Origin: a virus
Taxonomy: Duplodnaviria; Caudoviricetes
IMG/VR virus record: IMGVR_UViG_3300042397_003635
Reading direction: 5' to 3' (one strand)
Length of the DNA: 64,000 bases
How positions within the stretch are numbered: the stretch's first letter is position 1; every line of letters begins with the position of its first letter. The notes under the pieces were generated by a model. That model was not told the DNA's origin, searched no databases, and worked only from the letters and a program-made list of their open reading frames with translations. Shown one piece after another: positions 2,900 to 45,000 of this stretch. The position numbers and the translations under genes were made by a program.

Positions 2900-4022
2900 A
2901 GCTTAGTATTAATTTACCAACATAGAATACAATTGAACCCAAAATTACGCCTATTGCTAAATTATGTGTAACCACCGAAACTATAATTGTAGAAACGGTT
3001 GTTGTAAAATATAAAGGATTCTTATTAGTTAAACTGCGCCAATCTCCAGTTTCATATACAACAATTAGCATAACTCCAATTAGGCCAGCTAACGGTAACT
3101 GTTCTATATAGTTACCAAACACTAGAATTATTGAAATTAGCCCAACTGCGGCAACTATTCCAGATAGTCTGTGCTTTGCGCCAGCTCCAACATTAAGATT
3201 AGTTTGACCGACTAATACGCAACCGCCCATTGCTCCAAACAGGCCGCTTATAATATTGCCTAGACCTTGGGCAAATGTTTCTTTGGCTTTGCTGCCAGTT
3301 TCATTTAACTTATAAGATACTGAATCGACTGTCAATAGAGATTCAGTTAGACCTGATATTGCCATACCAAAAGAATAGGGCAACACAGTTAAGATTGAAG
3401 CTATTGTTATTTCGGGTAGGTTAAAACTTGGCAAGCTTGCCGTAACTGGCGAAAGATCACCAACTGTTGATAGCCCAAGTGGTATGCCAATAATACAGCC
3501 AGCTGCGATAGCAATAAGGGCTGGTGGAAAACTGAATTTCTTAGCTGACCACCACATTACTCCTGAACAGACTGCAACTGTTACTAACGTTAAACTTAGT
3601 GTTGCTGTACTGGGCAAGCCAACTGACAAATACCTGAATTGACTAGTAAGAATCATAATAGCTAGTGCAACCAAAAACCCTGAAATTGCGGATGGCGGAA
3701 TTTTGCCAAATATTTTCCAAGCAGATGTTGACCAAATTATAAGTTGAATAAGTCCTGCTACAATAACTCCAAGGAAAAGCAGATCCATTCCAGATTTTGC
3801 AACAAGACCTGCCATAATTACAGCAGTTGCACCAGTTGCACCAGAAATAAGACCAGGTCGACCACCAAAAATTGCAGTAGATAACGCCATAAATACAGCA
3901 GCCCATAATCCAACTTGAGGAGCTGCTCCAGCCAATAGCGCAAACGAAATTGCTTCAGGCACAAGTGCAACGGCAATAGTTAGACCCGATAAAATTTCGG
4001 TTCGTGTTTGAGATAATTGCAT
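2883..4022 (-). CDS. SulP-family inorganic anion transporter (membrane domain only, no STAS)
   Basis: LSGLTIAVALVPEAISFA, FGGRPGLISGATGA, AMGGCVLVGQTNLNV; many TM segments. Confidence 0.9.
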   Translation of the reverse strand: MQLSQTRTEILSGLTIAVALVPEAISFALLAGAAPQVGLWAAVFMALSTAIFGGRPGLISGATGATAVIMAGLVAKSGMDLLFLGVIVAGLIQLIIWSTSAWKIFGKIPPSAISGFLVALAIMILTSQFRYLSVGLPSTATLSLTLVTVAVCSGVMWWSAKKFSFPPALIAIAAGCIIGIPLGLSTVGDLSPVTASLPSFNLPEITIASILTVLPYSFGMAISGLTESLLTVDSVSYKLNETGSKAKETFAQGLGNIISGLFGAMGGCVLVGQTNLNVGAGAKHRLSGIVAAVGLISIILVFGNYIEQLPLAGLIGVMLIVVYETGDWRSLTNKNPLYFTTTVSTIIVSVVTHNLAIGVILGSIVFYVGKLILSYDKSK

Positions 4023-5857
4023 TAAAATGAAAGTTTAAGTAGTTTCTCTTTTCTTGGTGCAGAGTCGTTACCAAACCAATCTTCAAGAGACTGCTTGCTC
4101 TGCTTATCATTTGTTAACTGAACTAGATTTGGATTATGAATAATCTCACGATACTCATCATCTTCTAGAGCGGCAAGACCTTTTTTGTATTCAACATTCC
4201 AGCCAGTCATTTTAGTTTTAGCCTCCCATTTTAAGTAATCTTCTGCAGTATAGAATGGAACAATATCCTTTCCTTTTTTTGCAACAACTAACGGAGTCAT
4301 AACTTTAAAAATCTTTCCTTCGTTAACTAATTCTGGCCAATACTTATTAAAAAAGTTAATTAGCAATGCAGCAATAGAATCTCCATCTGGATCTGCATCA
4401 GTATAGATTAAGATTTTATTATATCGCATGTCCTTAGGATCTTCGCCAAGTTTAATTCCTAGCGATGCCATTAATTGAACGACTTCGTCATTTTTAATAA
4501 CATCACTGTTTTTCATTTCGCTTACATTAAGGAATTTACCTTTAAGAGGAAATGCGCCAAAAACTTGAGGATCTCTAAACTTACGAACAGCCGAAAGTGC
4601 AGACATACCTTCAAATATTCCAAGCGAACATTTATTGCGGTCTTTACCTTTAGCATCAATTAATTTAAGAACTTTAGTTGTGGCTAAAGATTTATTTAGT
4701 TTACGTAATTCAGCACGCTCTTCAGCTTGTTTCTTTTGTTGAATCCAATCCAATAAAGACTCAACTACTTCTGATGTAAAAACCGCCTTTGCAAATTTTT
4801 CAGAAACTGTGTGAGCCGTTCCAAATTCTTTGGGTTCGGTAATTAGCTTCTCTTTAGTTTGTGAAGAGAACGCTGGATTAATTACTGTACAGTTAATGAA
4901 TAAGAAAACATGATTACGGATTTCCGAAGGTTTAACTTCAACCTTATGCTTCTTTTTAATTAAGACTCTTAAGTCTTCAATTACCTGATTTAGGATATAG
5001 TTCTCATGGGTTCCACCATCTTTAGTTTCAATTGAGTTAACAAAAGAAATAGATTGATACCCATCTTTTGAATGACCTACTGCAAATTCCCAATGCTCGC
5101 TCTTTTCCCAAATAGGATTTTGAACATAGAGCTCAACATATTCTTTAAAGTTTTTAAATCTAAATTTCTCTCCATTAAATTCTAACTTAAGACCAGGATT
5201 TGCTGCTGCAATATCAATAACACGTTTACGCATCATTTTAATATGAGCTTCATCAAGAGCCTGCATTTCAAATCGGCTAAGGTCTGGTTCATATGAAATT
5301 TCGGTAAAACCTTGATTTGACGCAGATGTTTTAGCATCGCCTTTAACTGACATGTTTTTAGTAAAGAGCTGAACATATCTCTTTTTACCATCAGCCGTTT
5401 CAATCTTAAACTTATTAGAAAAGATATTTACTAGTGATGCACCAACACCATTGGTTCCAGCAACAGTTCTGCCTTCTTCATCATTAAAATTTGAACCGGC
5501 TCTAAGATTAGAGAAGATTAATTCGGGAATCCAAACTTTATGTTCTGGATGCTGAAGAACTGGAATACCTCCATTGTCCCAAACTGAAATAGAGTTGTCT
5601 TTAACTACAACTTTAATTTGGTTAATTTTGCCTGAGCGTTTATGCTCATCGACTGAGTTTGAAATAATCTCATCGAATAACTTTAGAAAGCCGGGATTGT
5701 AAGTCAATTCCTCTTTCTCATACATACCATCTTTTAAGATCCATTCCTGACTTGTATGTGGTTTAGTTGAACCAATATACATGCCAGGTCTTTTTAGGAC
5801 GTGCTCGATCTCATCAAGCAGCTGGTATTTCTTACTAATTTCTTTTGTTGATGCCAT
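4022..5857 (-). CDS. DNA topoisomerase II, GyrB-like subunit (T4 gp39+gp60-like fusion)
   Basis: EHVLKRPGMYIGS, EIISNSVDE, GTNGVGASL (GHKL ATPase), EGMSA, PLKGK, TDADPDG (TOPRIM). Confidence 0.95.
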   Translation of the reverse strand: MASTKEISKKYQLLDEIEHVLKRPGMYIGSTKPHTSQEWILKDGMYEKEELTYNPGFLKLFDEIISNSVDEHKRSGKINQIKVVVKDNSISVWDNGGIPVLQHPEHKVWIPELIFSNLRAGSNFNDEEGRTVAGTNGVGASLVNIFSNKFKIETADGKKRYVQLFTKNMSVKGDAKTSASNQGFTEISYEPDLSRFEMQALDEAHIKMMRKRVIDIAAANPGLKLEFNGEKFRFKNFKEYVELYVQNPIWEKSEHWEFAVGHSKDGYQSISFVNSIETKDGGTHENYILNQVIEDLRVLIKKKHKVEVKPSEIRNHVFLFINCTVINPAFSSQTKEKLITEPKEFGTAHTVSEKFAKAVFTSEVVESLLDWIQQKKQAEERAELRKLNKSLATTKVLKLIDAKGKDRNKCSLGIFEGMSALSAVRKFRDPQVFGAFPLKGKFLNVSEMKNSDVIKNDEVVQLMASLGIKLGEDPKDMRYNKILIYTDADPDGDSIAALLINFFNKYWPELVNEGKIFKVMTPLVVAKKGKDIVPFYTAEDYLKWEAKTKMTGWNVEYKKGLAALEDDEYREIIHNPNLVQLTNDKQSKQSLEDWFGNDSAPRKEKLLKLSF

Positions 5858-11166: not shown

Positions 11167-11706
11167 TTAATCACGTTTTATTTCAATTTTATGTTTTTCA
11201 CCATTTGCCATTGAATAAACTGCATGACTTGGATGGATTTGATATTCCTTACCTTTAAATTGATCCGCATATTTTTTACCCATACCTTTTTTAATATAGG
11301 CGACTGTCATATGAGGATGATAGTCTGGAAAGTCTGATGTAAAAGGAAACTGCTTTAACTTAGTATTAAGTTCTGATAATTGATCGCCTTTAATATCAAA
11401 CTTTAAGACATCATACTTATCATTCTCAAATAGAGATGGGTTATGTGCCTTAACTGTTGTGTAAGTAGGCTCGCTAACAATTGGTTCAACCTTATCTAAG
11501 CCAACATTATTATGTAGACCATAAAGTAGTGTTACATGAGGTTCATCCTCTAACCCAAATGTTTGATCTTCTGGATCCACATACACATCATCGCGATCGA
11601 TTTGACCATGCAATTCTGACATTTGCGGAAAATCTAGATAAAGCATTGCACATGAAAAATCATAAGCTGCTTTCTTTTCATTAATAAAATCTTTAATTGT
11701 TTTCAT
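11167..11706 (-). CDS. 2H phosphoesterase, T4 gp57B/Acb1 (anti-CBASS nuclease)-like
   Basis: Two HxT motifs (EPHVTLLY, YHPHMTVAY); SDFPDYHPHMTVAY resembles T4 Acb1 HDFDDYTPHITLSY; capsid-targeting-like start MKTIKDFINE. Confidence 0.75.
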   Translation of the reverse strand: MKTIKDFINEKKAAYDFSCAMLYLDFPQMSELHGQIDRDDVYVDPEDQTFGLEDEPHVTLLYGLHNNVGLDKVEPIVSEPTYTTVKAHNPSLFENDKYDVLKFDIKGDQLSELNTKLKQFPFTSDFPDYHPHMTVAYIKKGMGKKYADQFKGKEYQIHPSHAVYSMANGEKHKIEIKRD

Positions 11707-11720
11707 TTTATATTTTAATT

Positions 11721-12221
11721 TTAACAGAATTCAGTTGAGCTTGAAACTCTTAGTCCATCAATTTCACGATCAGCATAGGCTTTCCAATTATTTCCTAAGT
11801 AGTGTTCCTTATCTCTCATGTATGCTTCGTCAGCGACTAATCCATCAGGTTGACCCCATTCCATAGCCATTTGAATAAACTCATCAGCTTCAAATTCTGT
11901 TCCATACTCATCAACTACTCTACCACTCTTAATAAACTTAAGTAGAGTTTCTTTATTGGTGTAATATCTTTCACCATTAAAATTCCAGCAGAATTTCCAA
12001 CCACTTGACCTTTTACCTAAGTGAATTAGAGTTTGATCACAGAACTCGTCCCATGGAGATTCGTGTTCCCATACATAATCAGAATCATGAGTAGGAATTG
12101 TAGAAAATCTACGTTCAATATTTGAAGGTGTCATCTCTAATTCCTGAATACGCTTAGCTAATCTAGCTTTACGCTCTTCCATTTCTTGTTCAGTTGGAAT
12201 TCTGTAATAGTTAGTTCCCAT
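11721..12221 (-). CDS. Hypothetical phage protein
   Basis: MGTNYY...IHLGKRSSGWKFCW...VVDEYG. Confidence 0.65.
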   Translation of the reverse strand: MGTNYYRIPTEQEMEERKARLAKRIQELEMTPSNIERRFSTIPTHDSDYVWEHESPWDEFCDQTLIHLGKRSSGWKFCWNFNGERYYTNKETLLKFIKSGRVVDEYGTEFEADEFIQMAMEWGQPDGLVADEAYMRDKEHYLGNNWKAYADREIDGLRVSSSTEFC

Positions 12222-15648: not shown

Positions 15649-16998
15649 TTAATACATTATTAAATTTTCTTTTGCAATTGCAACTGAGTTCATTTCTAAT
15701 ATTCCCCATTGACCATCTCCAATTGCAGTATAGAATATTACAAATGGCATACCTGTTTTTATTCCTTGCTGATCGGTTCCATATCCATATCTGTTTAGAT
15801 ATCTACTGTTTTCGGTTGAACACGTAACAGTATTGCCTTCATCAGATGGAGCAAATACTTTTCCTGATGGAACATTAAATGAAATCGAATAGGTTCTTTC
15901 TTTACCATATGAATTTTGAAGAGTATCAGCTTCACCCATTTCAATTGTTGCAGTAAGATTAGCAACTTCATCTGAACTCAATAATTCACCGCCTAAATAT
16001 TCTTTAGCCCATGCTTGTAGTGCGCCTATTTCAATTTTTTGGAAATCAGATTTTCCATTTTTATCTGGTCTAAATGGAGTAATTGCGCTAGATTCAATTT
16101 TATGGTTGCTAGCATCTCCAAAAAAGAATTCCAATAGATTATCAGTTAAGACTGAATAGGTTTTAGACGTTTCGCCGCTTGATCCAACTTGACCTGGAGT
16201 TTCTGTTCCTGGCGTAGTAGTTCCTGGAGTAACAACACCTGGAGTTTTTACATCGTATGGAGTAGCACTAGTTGTTATTTTAACATAACGACCGCCTCTA
16301 GGCAAGCCAACCTTAAATGAGGTTGTAATTTTACCTGAAATAAATGTAACCAAATCTGGAGTAAGTTTACCGGTTGCAGTTAAGGCCTTAACTATTTCTT
16401 CCTTCATTTTAATTGCGCGATTCTCTGCAAGAAATTCATTGCTTGGTTTAGCACCACCATAATTATGGTCTAGTTTAGTATAACCAGCTGGAATATCTAG
16501 AGTTGCATTTGCAATATCGGCTGCTCCTTCAATTGCAATTGATTTGAAATTGTTTTTTGCTTGTGTTGCATCTAACCTAAAATATTCAACTAGGTTTGTA
16601 ATAAAACCATCAAATAAAACTTTAGCGGTTTGAGCAACTGTCCAGTTTGGTGTAATAATATTATCTGGGTAAGGAAAATCTGTTCCTTTAAAATCAACCG
16701 ATGGGGTAACAGTCGGTGGTGCAACTTGTGGTTGAGTTGTTACAGCTGGTGTTGATTTAGGAGGGGTAACACTGGACCATTTAGATCCACGTTTAGCAGC
16801 TGAGCCGAATGATATACCAAGTGCTCCTTCTTTTCCGGATTTTTCAGCAATTCCAATTATACGTTGACCGCTTCCAGCCAAGCCTAATTTTGGGAATTTG
16901 CCACTTAGTTTTCCTCGCCAATCAATAAAAAGACTTGCATCTTGTTCAAAAATTCTATTTTCGCTTAACCAATTTTGGTATCTTAAAATATTTGCCAT
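15649..16998 (-). CDS. Putative internal head protein with divergent OmpA-like domain
   Basis: Starts MANILRYQNWLSE; SIAIEGAAD...SNEFLAENRA...RYVKIT; late promoter at 17022-17030. Confidence 0.5.
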   Translation of the reverse strand: MANILRYQNWLSENRIFEQDASLFIDWRGKLSGKFPKLGLAGSGQRIIGIAEKSGKEGALGISFGSAAKRGSKWSSVTPPKSTPAVTTQPQVAPPTVTPSVDFKGTDFPYPDNIITPNWTVAQTAKVLFDGFITNLVEYFRLDATQAKNNFKSIAIEGAADIANATLDIPAGYTKLDHNYGGAKPSNEFLAENRAIKMKEEIVKALTATGKLTPDLVTFISGKITTSFKVGLPRGGRYVKITTSATPYDVKTPGVVTPGTTTPGTETPGQVGSSGETSKTYSVLTDNLLEFFFGDASNHKIESSAITPFRPDKNGKSDFQKIEIGALQAWAKEYLGGELLSSDEVANLTATIEMGEADTLQNSYGKERTYSISFNVPSGKVFAPSDEGNTVTCSTENSRYLNRYGYGTDQQGIKTGMPFVIFYTAIGDGQWGILEMNSVAIAKENLIMY

Positions 16999-17025
16999 TA
17001 ATAATTATGGTTTGTTTGTAGTTAT

Positions 17026-17526
17026 TTATCTTACAGGTTCAGGTCCTGTTGAGTAGAGGATAACACATACACTCCAGTCCTTGGTTTCAATTCGGCTATA
17101 ACCAAATCTAACTTCAGTAAATTGACTGACTCCTCTAGTCATAATATCCCAATGTTTATCACTAAGTTTAAAATAGTAGATTGCAGATTTGGTTGAAGCT
17201 GGAATACCTGTATAGTTAGGATCCCCAGCCCAGCACACTTCATAGATTCCTAGGCCTGCATCTCCAAACTTTTCTGCACGTTTCATTGGAGTCCTGGTTT
17301 GAGGACGATCCTCTTCATAGTGGCCAGCCTTTTTACCAGAAATTAGATAGTTTGCATGAAGTGCAGCAGCTGAATCTAGTTTAGAGGTTCTGGTTACCTT
17401 TGTAGATGGAGCAATTAGACCTCTAACGAGGGTATAAACTGAATCCCTTTGAACCTGTGCAGTTGCAGCAGAACCAGTTGCAATAAGAATTAAGATTATC
17501 AGCTTCTTCATATAGTTAATATACAA
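17026..17526 (-). CDS. Secreted CAP/SCP-like domain protein
   Basis: Signal peptide; LDSAAALHANYL..GHYE..MKRAEKFG..SDKHWDIM. Confidence 0.6.
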   Translation of the reverse strand: MYINYMKKLIILILIATGSAATAQVQRDSVYTLVRGLIAPSTKVTRTSKLDSAAALHANYLISGKKAGHYEEDRPQTRTPMKRAEKFGDAGLGIYEVCWAGDPNYTGIPASTKSAIYYFKLSDKHWDIMTRGVSQFTEVRFGYSRIETKDWSVCVILYSTGPEPVR

Positions 17527-17604
17527 AAGAATACGTTATTTGATTTAGTATATTAAAAAATAATAATTGGTATATTAATTATAGTAACAATAGTATAGAG
17601 ATTT

Positions 17605-18168
17605 ATGAAAAGGTTAATTATTTCTTCTGTATTTGCACTATTATCAACTGGTGCATATACTCAATCTGGAACTCCGATAAGCGTTACGGAAGATAAAGAG
17701 TTATCTAAATATGTATTCAATCATATTAATAACTATCGATCAACTCTACCTGAAAAACCTTTTATTTGGACAGAATTCTGGTATAGCTCAGCCAAGAGGT
17801 GGAATAATGAAGTTTCAAAAAATGGTAATTGGGGCCACAATCGAGGAAAGGAGTGGGAAGACTTTAGAGGACAGGAAATGATTGTAGCTGTTCCAATTTT
17901 ATCTGAAGCAGAAGATAATTACCAATATATTGCAGAGACTGCCCTAACCAAATGGTTACAATCTAAATATCATGTTAGTGGAATTGTTGCACCAAGACAA
18001 GAAAAGGTTGGCGATACTGCAACTGTTCAGTTTGGAGATGCTCAAGTTACTGGAGTATTGTTATGTAGGTACGGAGCTATCTCTGTAAATATAATAAAAT
18101 ACCCTAACTACAAAATCGCATATATCGTTTTCCAGTTAGGGTATTATGGGAACAGTAGTGGTCTTTAG
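17605..18168 (+). CDS. Secreted CAP/SCP-like domain protein
   Basis: Signal peptide; VFNHINNYRS..WGHNR..KWLQSKYH. Confidence 0.55.
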   Translation: MKRLIISSVFALLSTGAYTQSGTPISVTEDKELSKYVFNHINNYRSTLPEKPFIWTEFWYSSAKRWNNEVSKNGNWGHNRGKEWEDFRGQEMIVAVPILSEAEDNYQYIAETALTKWLQSKYHVSGIVAPRQEKVGDTATVQFGDAQVTGVLLCRYGAISVNIIKYPNYKIAYIVFQLGYYGNSSGL

Positions 18169-19361
18169 GAGTTTTTTCCTTGAGGATTTGTAATTGCTGT
18201 CCAGGCGCTTAGAGTTCTAGTTGAGTCCAATCCAGTAGTTTGCTTAGGTTTTGATAAAATAGTGTCTAACTCAGTTTTAGTGAAAAGCTCAGCAGGTTTG
18301 CCTACTTTTTCAACGGTTACTGTAAGTTTAGCATACTGTGCATCATCTCCACCATTTTGAATAACTGCTTTAGTTGTTGTAGGAACGCCTAATCCTTTTA
18401 ATTTTGATACAATTGCGTCAGCTCTACCAAATGCTAATGTTGCATTTCCAGATTCGCCCGCAGTCTTTGGAAAATACTGAGTACCTGCTGGATGGTTTGC
18501 TGGATAACCGCTTTTTCCATCTGCTGCTTTACGATCACCGGATGCACTAGCCTCAACTTGAATTGTTTTAATTTTAGTACTTTTATCGGCCAATAGTGCT
18601 TGTAATTCAGCAATTGCTGAATCTAATTCTTTAGTATTAGATAAGGTAGTTTTTCCAGTTTCAAACATTGTACCAGGTAATGCCTTAACAATAGTTTTTC
18701 CAGTTGCTGGAACTTCCCAAGTGGTAGTCGTTGCAACTTCTTTAGACACAGCTGACGTTGTAGCCTTAGTTCCATACAATTTAAATTTAAATCCTGTTAC
18801 AGGTTTTTCCCAGGTTAGAGTACCTTCTGGACTTACTTCTAAGATTACTCCACCTCCGGGTAAACCACCCTTTTGATATTTTATTCGATACGCAATTTCA
18901 GATAAAGATTTATTATTGCAATATAGTGCAATATTCTCATATTTTGAAGCTTGATCAGGATTTCCTGGATCGCTTATTAACTCATTTGTGAAAACTCCAG
19001 TTGTAAGAACTTCGGTAGGCTTTTCTGGGTGGGGCATTAGTTTAATATCTCCACTTTTATTAATCCATGTAGCTGGAGTTAAATCAGTAATAGTTTGTTT
19101 AATACCAATAAACAAATTAGTTAAAATTGCAGCAGCGTGTTCAGGGGTGACTGAGAAAACTATGCCGTTTCTTATTAAAATCGATTTAATTTTTTCATAA
19201 TTTAAATTGTCTTCTCCTCCAAAATATTGCCGTAATCCTTCGTACATGCCGTCTGAGTCAAAGGCCTGCGTGATGTAACTCATTTCTATATCTCCATGAG
19301 GACCAAATTCATTGATTGCTTGAGACTGCAACCAAGATTCAAATAGTTTAATTGTTGCCAT
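18165..19361 (-). CDS. Putative internal head protein with C-terminal OmpA-like domain
   Basis: Starts MATIKLFESWLQSQAINE; MFETGKTTL..IQVEASAS..GNATLAFGRADAI; late promoter at 19388-19396. Confidence 0.55.
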   Translation of the reverse strand: MATIKLFESWLQSQAINEFGPHGDIEMSYITQAFDSDGMYEGLRQYFGGEDNLNYEKIKSILIRNGIVFSVTPEHAAAILTNLFIGIKQTITDLTPATWINKSGDIKLMPHPEKPTEVLTTGVFTNELISDPGNPDQASKYENIALYCNNKSLSEIAYRIKYQKGGLPGGGVILEVSPEGTLTWEKPVTGFKFKLYGTKATTSAVSKEVATTTTWEVPATGKTIVKALPGTMFETGKTTLSNTKELDSAIAELQALLADKSTKIKTIQVEASASGDRKAADGKSGYPANHPAGTQYFPKTAGESGNATLAFGRADAIVSKLKGLGVPTTTKAVIQNGGDDAQYAKLTVTVEKVGKPAELFTKTELDTILSKPKQTTGLDSTRTLSAWTAITNPQGKNS

Positions 19362-19435
19362 TTTAAAATTGTTAAATTTATTTGTAGTTATTTATCTTGT
19401 ACTAAAAGCTATGATTTAGTTAATTGATCTTAGCC

Positions 19436-20755: not shown

Positions 20756-21628
20756 CTAGAAGCCGGTGCCGATTGAAAAAAGAATAGGGTTACTCTTTTT
20801 AAAACCTTGACTGTTTTTTTCAATTGTACTATTAAATCTTAAACCGCTATTTAAGATAAAGTTTTTTCCTATTTTCCAATCTGCCTGTATACCATAATAG
20901 GCATCCAAATTAAAATCTGCTAGGTAACTAATATTAAGAGTACCATCACTAAATGACCTGTGAATATCACTAACTAAAATAATTTGTGGTGAAAGGGTCA
21001 CCCGTTTCTTTTTAATTGGATAAGAATAGACAATCATGGCACGGGTTGTCAGCTGTCTAGATGGTGGCATTATCGGATAGATGTTAGCGACCCAATTACC
21101 CAGCGAATCAACTGTGTATTCGCCTTGCCATGGGCCTTCCCACTCGCCCCAAAATGTTTGGCTTGCAGTTAAGTTATAGCCAATTGTGCCAAATCTATGG
21201 GTCTTAATCATATCAATAAATGATACATTAATATTTTTCTGAAAATCAAAATCAAACGAACCAACTACCTGTAGAGTTGTGCTACGCCAATCGCTCTTTC
21301 GGGTAAGGCCATAACCTATGCCATAATATTTCCAGCCTGGATTAATTGATAGGATTCCAGCATGATTCCACTCCCCACTAGTCGAAGCCCTGTTAAGGGT
21401 TAAGTTAAGTGTAGTTGATACCTTACGACCCACAACACCAAGCGAAAGATCTGAAGTATTTAGGACGTCCTTTGAAAAATCAATATAGGCTTGAGTTGTT
21501 CCCAATCCCAACCATTGAGAGTTAAATTCAAATAGTTCTTGTGGTGTCAGCTTTAGGGTATCGGCTGGGGTTTGTGCGGTTGCGGCTAGGCCAGTCACCA
21601 ATAGTAGTATGGTTAATAAAGTTTTCAT
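20756..21628 (-). CDS. Putative outer-membrane beta-barrel protein
   Basis: Signal peptide; alternating amphipathic strands; C-terminal ILFSIGTGF (terminal Phe, BAM-type signal). Confidence 0.55.
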   Translation of the reverse strand: MKTLLTILLLVTGLAATAQTPADTLKLTPQELFEFNSQWLGLGTTQAYIDFSKDVLNTSDLSLGVVGRKVSTTLNLTLNRASTSGEWNHAGILSINPGWKYYGIGYGLTRKSDWRSTTLQVVGSFDFDFQKNINVSFIDMIKTHRFGTIGYNLTASQTFWGEWEGPWQGEYTVDSLGNWVANIYPIMPPSRQLTTRAMIVYSYPIKKKRVTLSPQIILVSDIHRSFSDGTLNISYLADFNLDAYYGIQADWKIGKNFILNSGLRFNSTIEKNSQGFKKSNPILFSIGTGF

Positions 21629-29436: not shown

Positions 29437-29526
29437 AATTAGATTGTTTAAGTATTAATTGATATGTAAATATAACCAAAATCTTTGACAGTAAAAAATA
29501 TTTGGCTACTTTTTTTTAAAATATTT

Positions 29527-30353: not shown

Positions 30354-30454
30354 ATAGATTGGTTTTAATTATAAAGTAAATATAAACAATATTCTTGACA
30401 AGTAAAAACTTTTAGTGAATTATTTTCCAAAAAGTTATTAACAATTGGGAGAGA

Positions 30455-34595: not shown

Positions 34596-34716
34596 AATTA
34601 TTTTTTTAAATTGATTGATTTATAATGTAAATATAATACTTTTTCTTGACATAGTACAATGTTTTTTAAAAAAGTTATTAACATTGTTTACTAGGGAGTG
34701 GCCCCTAGCCGGGGCC

Positions 34717-35106: not shown

Positions 35107-35171
35107 GATTGGTTTATTTTATAATGTAAATATAATAAAAATTCTTGACAGTAAAAAATTTATTTTAAGGA

Positions 35172-38188: not shown

Positions 38189-38321
38189 AGTTAATTGGTT
38201 TTAAGATTAATTGATATGTAAATATAAACAATTAATTTGACAGTAAAAAATTTATTTTAATCTTTTTTACAAAAAAAACCTGCCTTACGGGGCAGGTTCA
38301 AGGCTTAAAGAGATTCTCTAC

Positions 38322-41863: not shown

Positions 41864-42529
41864 TTAGCCTTGGTGAACTGGTAACTTTGTATTGTCAACC
41901 GTCCAATTATCATCAGTAAACATTTTCTCAACATCAGCGATACTTTTCTCGCTGTGCGTTCTCCAAAAATCAACAATAGTTTTACCTTCAGTTGCCTCTT
42001 TATTAAAGGTAATTTCACCATGACCCCAAACGTCTCCTTTATCAAATCCTAACCATTTCATTAATTTAAATGCAGCTAGCACCTGTACTGGCAATACATC
42101 TGAATCATTTGACGCAATTACCTCAACCCCTTGAGCAGTATCATTTTCAAGATCAGATGGCGCGCCAGGCTTACGGTCTTTTTTTGCAGTACCTGCATGC
42201 CATGCAGTTAGGCCTTCTGGAAAAGTTCTAAATACCTTACCTTCGCGATCAATAACCCACTGTACGCCAAGATTACGATTATTTAGAATATCCACTACAT
42301 CTTCAGCTTTACCTCGACCTGCAGTATGGTGAACAACAAAATATTTTTCCTTGTTTTTCATTGGACGTAGAGAGGATTGGTGTGCAGTATCAGATAAATC
42401 TTCAATGTCACCCTCAAACTCTTTAAACTCTGTGTTATCTGAGCCAAATGAAGATTTAGCAGCAACTCCGGTAAATAGTTGCGCAACATCGCTCAACCAA
42501 CCTTCAAATAATTTTACGTGCTTAGCCAT
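41864..42529 (-). CDS. N-acetylmuramoyl-L-alanine amidase (Amidase_2) with capsid-targeting-like N-terminus
   Basis: FVVHHTAG, QWVIDREG, AWHAG, QGVEV, VWGHGEI; starts MAKHVKLFEGWLSD. Confidence 0.85.
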   Translation of the reverse strand: MAKHVKLFEGWLSDVAQLFTGVAAKSSFGSDNTEFKEFEGDIEDLSDTAHQSSLRPMKNKEKYFVVHHTAGRGKAEDVVDILNNRNLGVQWVIDREGKVFRTFPEGLTAWHAGTAKKDRKPGAPSDLENDTAQGVEVIASNDSDVLPVQVLAAFKLMKWLGFDKGDVWGHGEITFNKEATEGKTIVDFWRTHSEKSIADVEKMFTDDNWTVDNTKLPVHQG

Positions 42530-42564
42530 TTTTAATTTGCTATTTCTTATTATTTATCCAAAGA

Positions 42565-42870
42565 CTATTCAGTCTCGTGGTCGTAGAATCGGGAAAACTT
42601 AACAACTGCCTCTGGCTCAACTTGGTTAAGATAGTCCAGTGAAAGTTCCCACCTGCCAATCGTCGAGTTGGAAATGAACAGCTCTCCGTGTAGTGAATCA
42701 ATTAGGGCATGTTGTTTTTCAATTAGTTCACGCTGCTCAGCAACTTGAAATTGAATTGATGACTTGGTTTGGTGCTGAGTAAGGGCAATTACAGAAACTA
42801 AAACCAGCCCAATCGTCAAATAAATTTCTCGGGTTTTCATATATTTAGATTTTGTTGTAGTCTTATACAA
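42565..42870 (-). CDS. Hypothetical membrane-anchored protein
   Basis: N-terminal TM segment followed by coiled coil. Confidence 0.55.
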   Translation of the reverse strand: MYKTTTKSKYMKTREIYLTIGLVLVSVIALTQHQTKSSIQFQVAEQRELIEKQHALIDSLHGELFISNSTIGRWELSLDYLNQVEPEAVVKFSRFYDHETE

Positions 42871-42927
42871 GAAACCAACTAAATGGGTTTTAGTACAAAT
42901 AAATAACTACAAATAAACCAAATAGTA

Positions 42928-44643
42928 ATGGAAATTAAAAGGTACCAAGACTGGCTATTTGAACAAAAATCCATGCAAGCTGATTGTGGCTGTAATTCAC
43001 CACTAACTGAGCAGGACGATAAAGTTCAAATTGGCACTGAGCGGATTAAAGTTGGTGAAAAAACAACTACCTCTGAAAAAACATTTGAGTTAGACAATAA
43101 AACCTACCCAGCTGGCATCTATTCGCCAGATAAATTAGTGCAGGCAAATAAAACGGCTCTTGATGCAAAGCTACAGGAAATTGCAAATTTCTGTGCACAA
43201 AATAAAGCATCTGTCGTTGAAATTCAAATTGAAGTTGGAGAAAGTGCAGTAACCAACTATGACCGTGAAAAGTTTCCATCAAAAGGAGACGCTAAAGTTG
43301 ATTACACCGATGAAAAGAAACTTGCACCTGGTAAATTGGCAGAACTACGTGGTCAAAAGCTACAGGAATATTTAACTAAGTATTTTGCAGGCCTGGTTAC
43401 AAGCAAAGTCTTAACTAATGCTCCACAAATTCCACAATTTAAAACCAATGCTGGAAAGCAAAAACATACCTATACTAAAGGTAAAGATAATCCAAGCGAC
43501 CCTAAGTATCTTGAAGATCAATATATTAAATTTACAGTTAAGGTCTTAACTACCAAAACTGAAGATATTATTGAAGAGCGCCCAATTTATGATTGTCTAG
43601 TTAACTTAACAATTGACGTAAGTTACTTTAAAACCAAAGACTCAAACTTTCCGTGTCGAGGTAATCACACCTGCGATAAGGCAAAATTTGACCTCTATTT
43701 AAATTCAACTAAATTAGGTACAGCTAACCTAAATAATGCCGGTGATGGTGGAGACCGTACTGCACAATTTAAAGTTACCAATGAAATGGTAAAAGGTATT
43801 GTTAATGATCCAGCGTTTAAAGCAAAAGAAGGTAAGGCTAAAACCCTAGTTTTGTGGACACAGTGTTTAATGCAATCTGGTGATTGTCACACTTCAGTTC
43901 AAGAGGTTAAAATTGTAGATCCAAAGGGTGGTATAATTTATCACTCATGTGTAAATCCACAAGCTGAACGAGGTAATACTAAAAAGAGTATTTTATCTGT
44001 TCTAGATGTATGCGGAAAACCTGTACCAGGAGCCACTCAAGATAATCTTAGTATGGATGACTTTATTGCAGCCGCAGATCAAGCAGTAAAAGCTTCTCTT
44101 GAAGGAGATGCTAAAAAGTTAAATGATGCAATTCAAGCAAATGGTCTTGAAATTTTCCCAGAATCAGAAGGAGCTGGTACTAATGTTTACCTATTTAATA
44201 AAAGATTTAATCAGGTAAATAAGGTAACCTCAATTACAGATGATACTGCAAACGGTAAAGTTAAAATTGCATTTCAGGTAACAAACGTTGCAGATCAGCC
44301 CGTAACCTATGTTAAAAATCCAGTTGATCCAACTGCGACTAGAAAATGGAATACTACCTTTAAAAAGGGCGAAAGTTATCCACGAATCTTTAAATTAGTT
44401 CAGCCAAGTGCATTTACAAAAGCCGGAGGAATTTTAGGTAAAAGAAATATCCAAATGTCAGAACAGGAAATTAGAGCAGCCCTGGCATCAGATATTGAAG
44501 ATTTAGCAGTTCGTCCAATTAATGGAACAGTTCAAACTGCAACGTATTTCTATTCAGCAACTGATATTAGCAAATATGGAATAACTCCAGGTTCAGTAAT
44601 CAAGGTTTCTCCAGTTACTAATGCTGGTGAAAAGCTTAAGTAA
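42928..44643 (+). CDS. Putative internal head protein with divergent OmpA-like domain
   Basis: MEIKRYQDWLFEQ; IQIEVGESAV..KLAELRGQKL..DQYIKFTV; late promoter at 42898. Confidence 0.5.
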   Translation: MEIKRYQDWLFEQKSMQADCGCNSPLTEQDDKVQIGTERIKVGEKTTTSEKTFELDNKTYPAGIYSPDKLVQANKTALDAKLQEIANFCAQNKASVVEIQIEVGESAVTNYDREKFPSKGDAKVDYTDEKKLAPGKLAELRGQKLQEYLTKYFAGLVTSKVLTNAPQIPQFKTNAGKQKHTYTKGKDNPSDPKYLEDQYIKFTVKVLTTKTEDIIEERPIYDCLVNLTIDVSYFKTKDSNFPCRGNHTCDKAKFDLYLNSTKLGTANLNNAGDGGDRTAQFKVTNEMVKGIVNDPAFKAKEGKAKTLVLWTQCLMQSGDCHTSVQEVKIVDPKGGIIYHSCVNPQAERGNTKKSILSVLDVCGKPVPGATQDNLSMDDFIAAADQAVKASLEGDAKKLNDAIQANGLEIFPESEGAGTNVYLFNKRFNQVNKVTSITDDTANGKVKIAFQVTNVADQPVTYVKNPVDPTATRKWNTTFKKGESYPRIFKLVQPSAFTKAGGILGKRNIQMSEQEIRAALASDIEDLAVRPINGTVQTATYFYSATDISKYGITPGSVIKVSPVTNAGEKLK

Positions 44644-44645
44644 TT

Positions 44646-44966
44646 TTAATTAGATTTCTTAGAAGTCGGTTTCCGTTTGGGAGCCGGCTTTTTTTGTGGA
44701 GTAGGTTTTACATATTCAACCTTCATGTTTGGACCAGTAATTAATTTAAGGTCCTTTTCTGGAATAGAATCCACAAATTTCTTAGTGTATTTTGCAATAG
44801 CAATTGAATCAGCAACACGCTGTTCTTCCTCTGCAGCCTTCATTCTGGCTAGGGTTTCTTCACTCAATTGTGGAACAACTACTTTAGCAGTATCTTTTGG
44901 TTGAGTTTGTGCGCATGCAATACTTGAGATTGCGGTTAAGGCTAAGATTAAAATTTGCTTTTTCAT
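44646..44966 (-). CDS. Secreted hypothetical protein
   Basis: Signal peptide MKKQILILALTAISSIACA. Confidence 0.55.
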   Translation of the reverse strand: MKKQILILALTAISSIACAQTQPKDTAKVVVPQLSEETLARMKAAEEEQRVADSIAIAKYTKKFVDSIPEKDLKLITGPNMKVEYVKPTPQKKPAPKRKPTSKKSN

Positions 44967-45000
44967 ATTAAATCTACTTTGGTTAAATTTAATATACTAA

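What the first reader, a model, noticed from the sequence alone, without database searches (positions are those of the whole stretch)
15649..19361. OmpA-like cargo proteins paired with secreted CAP-domain proteins
Seen: the order is OmpA-like(-), CAP(-), CAP(+), OmpA-like(-). Two capsid-tagged proteins with degenerate OmpA_C signatures (I-x-I/V-E-x-x-A...N-x-x-LA-x-x-RA) flank two signal-peptide CAP/SCP-like genes. A third OmpA-like tagged paralog (42928-44643) is also followed by a convergent secreted protein (44646-44966). Inference: a periplasmic module in which ejected peptidoglycan-binding proteins anchor or build the ejection conduit, while the exported partners act as cognate inhibitors or superinfection-exclusion factors (effector-immunity-like).
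Basis: inference. Interest (0 to 1): 0.7.

Follow-up and report, generated by a model that had tools for sequence, protein, structure and literature searches.

The report
Phage wall-binding cargo with exported partners
An uncultured T4-like giant phage and many relatives keep each gene for a capsid-tagged protein with a cell-wall-binding (OmpA-like) domain beside a separately promoted gene for an exported protein. This looks like a new kind of injected-protein/protective-partner pair, but what it does has not been tested.

Summary

**Fold of the tagged proteins**
- Proteins 18165-19361 (A) and 15649-16998 (B) have a clear OmpA-like fold in AlphaFold models: Z 10.7 and 11.3, and the first 34-35 matches among 48,161 PDB chains are all OmpA-like.
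- By sequence they stay below Pfam's threshold, and they share a long loop insertion.
- The third protein, 42928-44643 (C), is only probably OmpA-like (domain-cut hhalign to B: 71.5%, E 3.6e-5).

**Exported neighbours**
- 17605-18168 and 17026-17511 are CAP-domain proteins with signal peptides.

**Pairing in relatives**
- 8 of 8 distinct A loci and 16 of 16 B or B-like loci have a CAP gene within 150 bp. The background rate is 7 of 561 genes.
- Flanking genes are often unrelated, orientation varies, and one conserved genomic slot holds different pairs.
- C travels with a small exported, mostly lipoprotein, family: 34 of 40 loci have an exported neighbour.

**Promoter-like motifs**
- Cargo genes sit behind a late-like motif (ATAAATAAC).
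- Partner genes sit behind a different motif (GTATATTAA).

**Reading**
- Most likely: virion-delivered wall-binding proteins plus periplasmic partners that protect the infected cell, comparable to T4 gp5/Spackle or T5 pb5/Llp. This is inference.
- The complex prediction gave no verdict.
- No cultured phage carries these genes.
- The scan had noted this stretch once before, on an overlapping window.

The parts
18165..19361 (-). Cargo protein A (398 aa): N-terminal T4-CTS-like tag (1-18), variable N-domain (19-208), OmpA-like domain (209-352), short tail.
   Evidence: AF2 model pLDDT 79. Foldseek and VIA top hits are all OmpA-like, Z 10.7. Pfam OmpA 18.6 bits, below threshold. 58 homologues. Identity to the window protein by segment: tag 81%, OmpA-like domain 65%, N-domain 38%.
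17605..18168 (+). Exported CAP-domain partner of A (187 aa). Signal peptide MKRLIISSVFALLSTGAYTQ. Convergent with A; the 3' ends overlap by 4 nt.
   Evidence: Pfam CAP 27.5 bits against cut-off 21.1. 28 homologues; H78, E91 and H123 are invariant. Adjacent to an A homologue in 8 of 8 distinct loci.
17512..17604 (.). AT-rich divergent intergenic region with three copies of GTATATTAA: one facing CAP-B (17516-17524, -) and two facing CAP-A (17548, 17570, +).
   Evidence: GTATATTAA occurs 8 times in the window against 1.5 expected; 4 of the 8 lie in front of the three partner genes.
17026..17511 (-). Exported divergent CAP-domain partner of B (161 aa from the ATG at 17511). Signal peptide MKKLIILILIATGSAATAQ. 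Lies 28 nt upstream of B on the same strand.
   Evidence: Pfam CAP 17.5 bits, below threshold. Family alignment A11 against verified CAP neighbours: hhalign 89.5%, E 2e-6. Found directly upstream of B homologues in L005, L010, L011, L021-L023.
15649..16998 (-). Cargo protein B (449 aa): tag (1-18), beta-rich N part, OmpA-like domain (96-247), Thr/Pro/Gly linker, C-terminal domain (281-449) of unknown fold.
   Evidence: AF2 model pLDDT 79.6. VIA Z 11.3, rmsd 2.8-2.9 A over 107-109 of 119-120 residues against A. baumannii OmpA-like domain; the first 35 of 48,161 chains are all OmpA-like.
17019..17029 (-). Late-like promoter motif ATAAATAACTA in front of B, overlapping the 3' end (stop codon) of the CAP-B gene.
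19385..19395 (-). Late-like promoter motif ATAAATAACTA in front of A.
   Evidence: 10 matches in the window against 1.2 expected
42928..44643 (+). Cargo protein C (571 aa): tag, probable OmpA-like domain (about 45-215), Cys/His-rich domain (about 216-370), variable C-terminal part. The late-like motif lies at 42899-42909.
   Evidence: 196 representative homologues. Domain-cut hhalign to B's OmpA-like domain: 71.5%, E 3.6e-5. Pfam OmpA in 2 of 47 members only.
44646..44966 (-). Small exported partner of C (106 aa; signal peptide, possible lipobox SSIAC). Convergent with C, gap 2 nt. GTATATTAA lies at 44989-44997 in front of it.
   Evidence: Member of one small exported family: 27 of 28 distinct downstream partners are BLAST-linked, sharing the motif YTK.FV.SIP..DL.L. 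Most have a lipobox.

Best explanation
These are conserved two-gene modules of T4-like giant phages that probably infect Bacteroidota. One gene is late-expressed and encodes a protein with no signal peptide. That protein carries the phage's capsid-targeting-type N-terminal tag and a divergent OmpA-like (peptidoglycan-anchor type) domain, so it is probably packed into the head and released into the cell envelope at infection, along with tagged wall hydrolases. The adjacent gene has its own, different promoter-like motif and encodes a protein exported to the periplasm of the infected cell: a CAP domain for families A and B, a small lipoprotein-like protein for family C. The most likely role of the partner is to neutralise the matching incoming cargo protein, or to mask its target in the wall. 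That would protect an already infected cell from later-arriving sibling virions (superinfection exclusion, or resistance to lysis from without). T4 Spackle does this against the gp5 lysozyme, and T5 Llp does it against the pb5 receptor. Shown here: folds, tags, signal peptides, linkage, swapping of pairs as units, and distinct promoter-like motifs. Inferred: packaging, delivery to the periplasm, peptidoglycan binding, and the protective action of the partner.
For: OmpA-like fold in A and B. The signature D...N-x-x-L-A-x-x-R is conserved, and the OmpA-like domain and the tag are the best conserved parts. The exported partners are CAP domains with a conserved His-Glu-His set. A CAP gene lies within 150 bp in 8/8 A loci and 16/16 B or B-like loci, and an exported neighbour in 34/40 C loci; background is 7/561 CAP genes and 40/561 signal-peptide genes. 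Only the pair is shared in L003, L007, L009, L010, L011. Orientation can be convergent, tandem or divergent. Orthologous flanks hold different pairs in L012 versus L009/L007. A fourth tagged OmpA-like lineage is again convergent with a CAP-like gene. Cargo genes lie behind ATAAATAAC and partner genes behind GTATATTAA, which also precedes the 611-aa ORF 4022-5857 that reads like a GyrB/T4 gp39-type topoisomerase subunit by its N-terminus only. The same tag sits on an amidase in the window and a lysozyme in relatives, so part of the tagged set acts on the wall. A T4-type prohead protease family is present in 4 of 5 related records. Precedents: Spackle-gp5 (PMC7677548, PMC7650644) and Llp-FhuA-pb5 (PMC9586334); OmpA-like domains binding periplasmic proteins appear among the structural matches (YfiB-YfiR 6ikk, Pal-TolB 2hqs).
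Against: There is no experimental data, and no homologue in any cultured phage. In T4 itself, CTS-tagged internal proteins are known to act in the cytoplasm, so release of head cargo into the periplasm is an assumption. The OmpA-like domains carry a 20-30-residue insertion in the loop that forms the peptidoglycan pocket, so the ligand may differ. CAP domains are not known as protein inhibitors in bacteria, and their conserved His/Glu set hints at a catalytic or metal-binding role of their own. CAP-A evolves more slowly than its cargo partner (80% against 47% identity in L003), which is not what an arms-race inhibitor pair usually shows. A CAP-A homologue at about 60% identity lies on a bacterial-looking contig without any OmpA-like neighbour. 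The timing of the two promoter-like classes is inferred from motif resemblance, not measured.
Confidence: 0.4

Rival explanations
1. Target masking or wall remodelling. The exported CAP or lipoprotein partner does not touch the phage protein. It binds or chemically alters the envelope component (peptidoglycan stem peptide or an envelope protein) that the OmpA-like cargo needs. This closes the door behind the first phage and keeps progeny from wasting themselves on debris, as T5 Llp does with FhuA.
For: The CAP partners keep the His-Glu-His set of the CAP cavity in all lineages, which suggests an activity of their own. CAP-A is more conserved than its cargo partner, as expected if it recognises a conserved host structure. 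A close CAP-A homologue stands alone on a bacterial-looking contig. T5 llp is described with the receptor-binding protein pb5 as a superinfection-exclusion pair (PMC9586334); that llp lies next to the pb5 gene is from memory.
Against: No wall-modifying activity is known for bacterial CAP domains. The strict pair-wise swapping of cargo and partner types at one slot is easier to explain by direct recognition. Family C uses an unrelated small lipoprotein for the same position.
Confidence: 0.2
2. Self-recognition sensor. The exported partner is a periplasmic receptor that detects the matching cargo protein spilled by a superinfecting sibling phage. It relays this to lysis timing (a lysis-inhibition-type signal) rather than blocking entry.
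For: The phage family is T4-like, and T4 is known to delay lysis on superinfection (established knowledge, not tested here). Tight linkage of ligand and sensor and swapping as units fit a kin-recognition pair. Partner genes have a non-late promoter-like motif.
Against: No holin or antiholin genes were identified near the pairs. The partners have no membrane anchor other than a possible lipid in family C. Three to four parallel sensor pairs in one genome seems excessive.
Confidence: 0.07
3. The pairs work together at the end of infection, not at entry. Unpackaged OmpA-like protein released when the inner membrane is permeabilised, together with the periplasmic partner, competes with host OmpA/Pal-type tethers and helps detach or break the outer membrane (a spanin substitute for Bacteroidota hosts).
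For: No spanin-like pair was noticed in the window. Family C partners are small lipoproteins, like o-spanins. OmpA-like domains are the host's wall-to-outer-membrane tethers (structural matches).
Against: The cargo proteins carry the capsid tag, which is invariant. They have no membrane anchor. Cargo and partner are mostly convergent with different promoter-like motifs, whereas spanin genes are co-transcribed (established knowledge). Several parallel pairs occur per genome.
Confidence: 0.08
4. There is no direct functional coupling. Exported CAP and lipoprotein genes are accessory 'moron'-type insertions that happen to sit beside cargo genes in a plastic region and are inherited together by descent.
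For: The region is a plastic accessory region with many small genes of unknown function. Related sequences are not independent samples, so the P values are overstated.
Against: The association recurs in at least four cargo lineages with no detectable sequence similarity between some of them. It occurs in three orientations, with unrelated flanks, and whole pairs are exchanged between orthologous flanks. CAP genes are otherwise rare: 7 of 561 background genes.
Confidence: 0.1

Closest known systems
T4 tail lysozyme gp5 and the periplasmic inhibitor Spackle (gp61.3) (PMC7677548, PMC7650644)
   Same: A virion-delivered protein that acts on the cell wall, and an early, signal-peptide-bearing periplasmic protein of the same phage that neutralises it in already infected cells. 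The phage lineage is T4-like.
   Different: Here the delivered protein has a wall-binding OmpA-like domain, not a lysozyme. It carries a head-cargo tag rather than being a baseplate spike. The partner is a CAP domain or a small lipoprotein, unrelated to Spackle. In T4 the two genes are not adjacent (from memory); here they always are. Binding is not shown here.
T5 receptor-binding protein pb5 and lipoprotein Llp (PMC9586334)
   Same: A small exported lipoprotein that gives superinfection exclusion, paired with a virion protein that engages the envelope. From memory, llp lies next to, and opposite to, the pb5 gene. This resembles family C with its convergent small lipoprotein.
   Different: Llp blocks the host receptor FhuA at the outer membrane. 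The cargo here is not a receptor-binding tail protein, and no target is known.
Periplasm-acting T6SS effector/immunity pairs (such as Tse1-Tsi1 and Tse3-Tsi3; recalled from memory, not tested)
   Same: An injected protein without a signal peptide acts on the wall. The adjacent gene encodes a small periplasmic or lipoprotein immunity protein. Pairs are exchanged as cassettes.
   Different: Delivery would be by a phage particle, not a T6SS. No enzymatic toxic domain was identified in A or B. The benefit would be to the phage, not to a bacterial competitor.
OmpA-like peptidoglycan anchors of envelope machines (OmpA C-domain 3td3/3td5, Pal, MotB/PomB, T6SS TagL 5m38 and TssL, Dot/Icm T4SS 6x62)
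   Same: The same fold at Z 8-11, and conserved Asp/Asn/Arg positions of the wall-binding signature.
   Different: No signal peptide, lipobox or membrane helix. Instead there is a capsid-type tag. There is a 20-30-residue conserved insertion in the binding loop (GYP in A, GYT..DH.Y.G in B). Sequence scores are below Pfam's threshold.
T4 internal proteins IPI-III and Alt with the capsid targeting sequence (PMC3012670, PMC9026906)
   Same: A short N-terminal tag of the same pattern on unrelated proteins. A prohead protease of the T4 family is present in relatives.
   Different: Known T4 internal proteins act in the cytoplasm. None has a wall-binding domain or a linked exported partner.

Membership tests
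OmpA-like / OmpA_C peptidoglycan-binding domain (PF00691) | beta-alpha-beta-alpha-beta-beta fold superimposable on solved OmpA-like domains | tested here: met
   A: Z 10.7, rmsd 2.5 A over 112 residues (6x62_DK); first 34 rows are OmpA-like. B: Z 11.3, rmsd 2.8-2.9 A over 107-109 residues (3td5, 3td3); first 35 rows are OmpA-like. C: not folded.
OmpA-like / OmpA_C peptidoglycan-binding domain (PF00691) | Sequence score above Pfam's gathering threshold (27.2 bits) | tested here: not met
   A: 18.6 bits. 7 of 40 family members hit at E<=0.1, none over the cut-off. B: no hit. C: 2 of 47 members at E>=0.012. Profile searches of PDB sequences with the A and C family alignments found no OmpA-like entry.
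OmpA-like / OmpA_C peptidoglycan-binding domain (PF00691) | Conserved Asp and Arg that hold the diaminopimelate of the stem peptide (D...N-x-x-L-S-x-x-R-A) | tested here: inconclusive
   D276, N306, L309, A310 and R313 are invariant in A. N187, L190, A191 and R194 are invariant in B (D161 in the core family). E105, S106, N110 and R141 are invariant in C. The loop between them is 20-30 residues longer than usual. No residue-level superposition on a ligand complex was possible.
OmpA-like / OmpA_C peptidoglycan-binding domain (PF00691) | Binds peptidoglycan | not testable with these tools
   Needs a sacculus pull-down.
CAP / SCP / PR-1 superfamily (PF00188) | Sequence score above Pfam's gathering threshold (21.1 bits) | tested here: met
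   CAP-A 27.5 bits. Partners in relatives score 27.4-48.5 bits (L012, L037, L038, L019, L014, L007). CAP-B scores only 15-17.5 bits but links to the verified set by hhalign at 89.5%, E 2e-6. Six further partners link at 98.7%, E 3.5e-16.
CAP / SCP / PR-1 superfamily (PF00188) | Conserved His/Glu residues of the CAP cavity | tested here: inconclusive
   H78, E91 and H123 (and E29) are invariant in CAP-A; H80, E114 and H146 in A8; H88 and E95 in A9; H64, E91 and H120 in CAP-B. Their equivalence to the canonical tetrad was judged from alignment patterns only; no CAP structure model was made.
T4-type capsid-targeted internal (ejected) proteins | N-terminal targeting peptide followed by a prohead-protease site (L/I-x-E) | tested here: met
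   MATIKLFESWLQSQAINE, MANILRYQNWLSENRIFE, MEIKRYQDWLFE. About 20 ORFs of the window share the pattern. The tag is invariant in family A.
T4-type capsid-targeted internal (ejected) proteins | Phage encodes a T4-type prohead protease (Peptidase_S77) | tested here: met
   PF03420 scores over its cut-off in 4 of 5 related IMG/VR records that carry these modules. The window's own genome is not held.
T4-type capsid-targeted internal (ejected) proteins | Protein present in the mature head and ejected | not testable with these tools
   Needs virion proteomics. No cultured relative exists.
Superinfection-exclusion / effector-immunity pair | Partner gene adjacent and co-inherited with the delivered protein | tested here: met
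   8/8, 16/16 and 34/40 loci; unit swapping.
Superinfection-exclusion / effector-immunity pair | Partner located in the compartment where the delivered protein acts | tested here: inconclusive
   Signal peptides and lipoboxes on the partners were judged by inspection and a simple rule. The destination of the cargo is unknown.
Superinfection-exclusion / effector-immunity pair | Partner protects against the delivered protein or the phage | not testable with these tools
   Needs expression of the partner in a host and a challenge experiment.

The most novel reading that the evidence does not exclude
T4-like giant phages of Bacteroidota carry a polymorphic, cassette-swapping system of head-packaged, periplasm-acting wall-binding 'effectors', each with a cognate exported 'immunity' protein (CAP domain or mini-lipoprotein). 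This would be a phage counterpart of bacterial effector-immunity systems that governs competition between co-infecting phages. It would also give bacterial-type CAP domains their first defined job, as specific periplasmic neutralisers.
Probability: 0.3. Interest if true: 0.8.

Novelty: new variant of a known kind. Interest (0 to 1): 0.68.

Why it matters
**Injected proteins acting on the envelope.** If the reading is right, it shows that giant phages inject proteins aimed at the cell envelope as well as the cytoplasm. It also shows that they encode matched periplasmic antidotes, so which phage can enter an already infected cell could be read from sequence.

**A testable role for CAP domains.** The function of prokaryotic CAP/SCP domains is essentially unknown. 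This gives a testable hypothesis for it.

**A new OmpA-like subfamily.** It defines a phage-specific subfamily of OmpA-like domains that sequence libraries miss.

**Experimental handle.** The modules are compact, two genes each, and could be tested in any genetically tractable Bacteroidota host.

**Value without the mechanism.** Even if the mechanism is wrong, the strict linkage across at least four lineages is a robust and apparently undescribed genomic rule.

Tried and rejected
- **Complex prediction.** Cargo A (19-398) with CAP-A (21-187), both as alignments, scored 0.01 and 0.04 against a mark of 0.32. This is no verdict and was not used as evidence either way.
- **BLASTP between the three cargo proteins.** Nothing significant beyond the tag, so 'paralogues' was rejected as a description.
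- **PDB sequence-profile searches** with A1 and A4: no OmpA-like entry, only one weak glycosyl-hydrolase row for A4.
- **PHROGs.** No family for any of the cargo or partner proteins.
- **Atlas feature searches** on parts of C: no usable lead.
- **tblastn of B and C against 50,697 GenBank phage records.** No match. DNA search of the region found only about 150-base matches to uncultured megaphages.
- **BFVD fold search with B.** Only uncharacterised proteins of uncultured phages.
- **Scan of 185,579 bacterial species genomes with the CAP-A profile.** No relative found.
- **T4 late promoter TATAAATA.** Only 1 copy against 9.4 expected, so this phage does not use that exact motif; a variant, ATAAATAAC, is used instead.
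- **The generic sigma-70 and terminator scan** was no better than shuffles.
- **Spanin-type reading.** Considered and ranked low (see rivals).
- **Promoter motifs in distant family C relatives.** The counts did not follow the window's pattern, so the promoter argument is limited to the window and its closer relatives.
- **The window's own genome** is not held.
- **Literature searches.** No description of phage OmpA-like cargo or of a cargo-CAP pairing was found.

Full report
**What is there**

- B: 15649-16998 (-), 449 aa.
- CAP-B: 17026-17526 (-). Homologues show the real start is the ATG at 17511, giving 161 aa.
- CAP-A: 17605-18168 (+), 187 aa.
- A: 18165-19361 (-), 398 aa.

The third locus is C, 42928-44643 (+), 571 aa, followed after 2 nt by the convergent 44646-44966 (-), 106 aa.

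A, B and C begin with MATIKLFESWLQSQAINE, MANILRYQNWLSENRIFE and MEIKRYQDWLFE. About twenty ORFs of the window share this pattern. It resembles the capsid targeting sequence of T4 internal proteins (PMC3012670, PMC9026906). In a 40-sequence alignment of family A the tag residues M1, I4, K5, L6, F7, E8 and W10 are invariant. Earlier notes of this scan had already described the tag family. I used them as a lead and checked one point myself: a T4-type prohead protease family (PF03420) scores above its cut-off in 4 of 5 related IMG/VR records that carry these modules. The window's own genome is not held.

**Are the large proteins OmpA-like?**

By sequence, hardly. Only A touches Pfam OmpA, at 18.6 bits against a cut-off of 27.2. 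Seven of 40 family members hit at E<=0.1 and none passes. BLASTP finds nothing between A, B and C beyond the tag.

By structure, clearly yes for A and B.
- The AlphaFold model of A (pLDDT 79) matches OmpA-like domains over residues 209-352. The best match is Z 10.7, rmsd 2.5 A over 112 residues. The first 34 of 48,161 representative PDB chains are all OmpA-like, and unrelated folds start at Z 5.6.
- The model of B (pLDDT 79.6) matches over residues 96-247. The best match is Z 11.3, rmsd 2.8-2.9 A over 107-109 of 119-120 residues, 20% identity, to the Acinetobacter OmpA-like domain. The first 35 rows are all OmpA-like.

They therefore form divergent phage-specific branches of the fold, and their ligand need not be canonical.

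The OmpA-like domain and the tag are the best conserved parts. In A, identity to the window protein is 81% for the tag and 65% for the domain, against 38% for the N-domain. In B the domain is at 84%.

The evidence is indirect:
- hhalign of the whole families against B gives E 9e-4, and against A E 0.036.
- After cutting to the domains, C against B reaches 71.5% probability, E 3.6e-5 over 105 columns.
- Pfam OmpA hits 2 of 47 members weakly.

I call C probably OmpA-like. Its second, Cys/His-rich domain (about 216-370) also occurs in subtilases, a GTA TIM-barrel protein and an RCC1-repeat protein, so it looks like a mobile binding module.

**Are the neighbours exported CAP proteins?**

- CAP-A passes Pfam CAP at 27.5 bits against 21.1. 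Its 28 homologues keep H78, E91 and H123.
- CAP-B is below threshold at 17.5 bits, but its family aligns to a set of Pfam-verified CAP neighbours at 89.5%, E 2e-6.

Both start with a basic residue, a hydrophobic stretch and A-x-A-Q or Y-T-Q, which are signal peptides by inspection.

**Is the pairing conserved?**

This is the main result. I fetched 85 related loci from metagenomes and IMG/VR and scanned them with family profiles.

| Anchor family | Distinct loci | Loci with the neighbour within 150 bp |
|---|---|---|
| A | 8 | 8 with a CAP gene |
| B and B-like | 16 | 16 with a CAP gene |
| C | 40 | 34 with a signal-peptide gene |
| Background (561 other genes) | - | 7 CAP genes, 40 signal-peptide genes |

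The sequences are related, so the binomial P values (1e-7 to 1e-24) overstate the case. Four observations do not depend on them.

1. In L003, L007 and L009 (family A) nothing but the pair is shared with the window, and L010 and L011 (family B) lie in visibly different gene neighbourhoods.
2. The orientation differs between lineages: convergent for A and the distant B-like groups, tandem with the partner upstream for core B, and divergent in L012.
3. Pair B is present or absent as a unit. It is present in the window and L005/L006 and absent from L001-L004.
4. L012, L009 and L007 have orthologous flanks (helicase 86%, glycosylase 73%, a 191-aa protein 83% identical), yet the slot between them holds different pairs. 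L012 has one B-like pair. L009 has an A pair plus a further pair. L007 has an A pair plus an extra CAP.

The further pair in L009 is a 531-aa tagged protein with the same signature (VLTSSASPD...NAKLAYDRG), convergent with a CAP-like gene. That makes a fourth lineage.

Six partners that Pfam misses are CAP domains by profile comparison (98.7%, E 3.5e-16).

Family C travels with a different partner, a 60-129-aa exported protein, usually with a lipobox. It is convergent, with gaps of -19 to +31 nt. Of the distinct partners, 27 of 28 are BLAST-linked into one family that includes the window's 106-aa protein, sharing the motif YTK.FV.SIP..DL.L. Some C loci also have CAP genes upstream: L014, L040, L046 and L078/79.

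**Regulation**

Upstream regions show two distinct motifs.
- ATAAATAAYWA occurs 10 times against 1.2 expected. It lies directly in front of A (19385), B (17019, overlapping the 3' end of CAP-B) and C (42899), as well as other tagged genes. It resembles the T4 late promoter TATAAATA, which itself is nearly absent here (1 copy against 9.4 expected).
- GTATATTAA occurs 8 times against 1.5 expected. All copies are intergenic and face the next gene. Four of the eight face CAP-A (two copies), CAP-B and the 106-aa partner. One faces the 611-aa ORF 4022-5857, whose N-terminus reads like a GyrB/T4 gp39-type topoisomerase subunit (not checked against a family library).

In relatives the late-like motif precedes 7 of 8 A genes and 11 of 16 B genes, but 0 of 8 A partners and 4 of 16 B partners. 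GTATAWTA precedes no anchor, but 3 of 8 and 9 of 16 partners. Cargo and partner therefore appear to be transcribed separately, probably at different times. The timing itself is inferred.

**How it most likely works**

Shown:
- A tagged, signal-less protein with a wall-anchor fold.
- A linked exported partner.
- Exchange of pairs as units.
- Separate promoter-like motifs.

Supporting context: the same tag sits on an amidase (41864-42529, Pfam Amidase_2 at 43 bits) and, in relatives, on a lysozyme. Part of the tagged set is therefore aimed at the wall.

Inferred: the tagged proteins are packed into heads, released into the envelope at infection, and bind the wall. The partner, made in the infected cell and exported, neutralises the matching incoming protein or masks its target.

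The closest precedents are T4 Spackle, an early periplasmic protein that inhibits the virion lysozyme gp5 (PMC7677548, PMC7650644), and T5 Llp, a small lipoprotein that blocks the receptor used by pb5 (PMC9586334). OmpA-like domains that hold periplasmic protein partners (YfiB-YfiR, Pal-TolB) are among the structural matches.

Weak points:
- T4's own tagged proteins are known to act in the cytoplasm.
- The binding loop is remodelled.
- CAP domains have no known inhibitor role.
- CAP-A evolves more slowly than its cargo.
- A CAP-A homologue stands alone on a bacterial-looking contig.
- The one complex prediction gave no verdict, which counts neither way.

**Novelty**

No homologue exists in 50,697 GenBank phage records, in PHROGs or among named BFVD entries. 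I found no paper describing phage OmpA-like cargo or a cargo-CAP pairing. The scan's index shows the same stretch noted once more from an overlapping window and nothing similar elsewhere.

The architecture belongs to a known kind: a delivered envelope-acting protein plus an exported protective partner. The components are new, the linkage is strict and cassette-like, and it is multiplied within one genome.

I rate it a new variant of a known kind. The module is real with high confidence. Confidence in the proposed mechanism is moderate to low, at 0.4.

Noticed in passing
window 41864-42529 (-) and 42565-42840 (-): A capsid-tagged N-acetylmuramoyl-L-alanine amidase (Pfam Amidase_2, 43 bits), behind the late-like motif at 42547. 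Directly upstream on the same strand lies a 91-aa protein with an N-terminal hydrophobic anchor or signal. This is the same layout as CAP-B/B and may be a further cargo/exported-partner pair.
   Followed up: partly
window 20756-21628 (-); L005 1335-2773; L001 3071-4549: A 290-aa exported protein ending in ...SIGTGF (C-terminal Phe, as in outer-membrane beta-barrels), 78-90% identical in relatives. In those relatives it lies next to a capsid-tagged lysozyme (Phage_lysozyme2; MMIQNFKGWLNES, MKIQTFAGWLNEA) that the window lacks at this place.
   Followed up: partly
window, e.g. 29437-29500, 30354-30420, 34596-34660, 35107-35170, 38189-38250: A third upstream motif class (TTTTTTACTGTCAAG ... TTATATTTAC) in front of many small minus-strand genes between about 29 and 38 kb. 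It is distinct from both ATAAATAAC and GTATATTAA and is probably the early promoter class.
   Followed up: no
L009 3074-4669 (-) and 2488-3039 (+): A fourth lineage of tagged OmpA-signature protein (531 aa, MSYLLNYKNW..., VLTSSASPD...NAKLAYDRG), convergent with a CAP-like exported 183-aa protein.
   Followed up: partly
L008 5001-5534: A CAP-A homologue (about 60% identity) on a 52.9-kb contig with bacterial-looking genes (MFS transporter, GT4 glycosyltransferase, alanine racemase) and no OmpA-like neighbour. This is either the source of the phage gene or a bacterial capture of it.
   Followed up: partly
L024-L036, L039-L084 (N-termini of B-like and C-family proteins): In other phage lineages these proteins start with a different shared N-terminal motif (e.g. 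LTEELRRMKNLMVYN, EELYRMKYLFGYQRG, ITEEDRKHILS). It may be the capsid-address tag of those phages.
   Followed up: no
L046 536-2339: Three CAP genes in tandem (176, 174, 196 aa) upstream of a family C gene that also has the small lipoprotein downstream.
   Followed up: no
window 42928-44643, residues about 216-370: A Cys/His-rich domain (FPCRG.H.CD ... C..CH) that also occurs in large proteins with Peptidase_S8, GTA_TIM or RCC1 domains. No family name was found.
   Followed up: partly
L088 (G002 99381-99737) and G004 11684-12037: The T4-type prohead protease domain lies inside open frames of about 700 aa in two related records.
   Followed up: no
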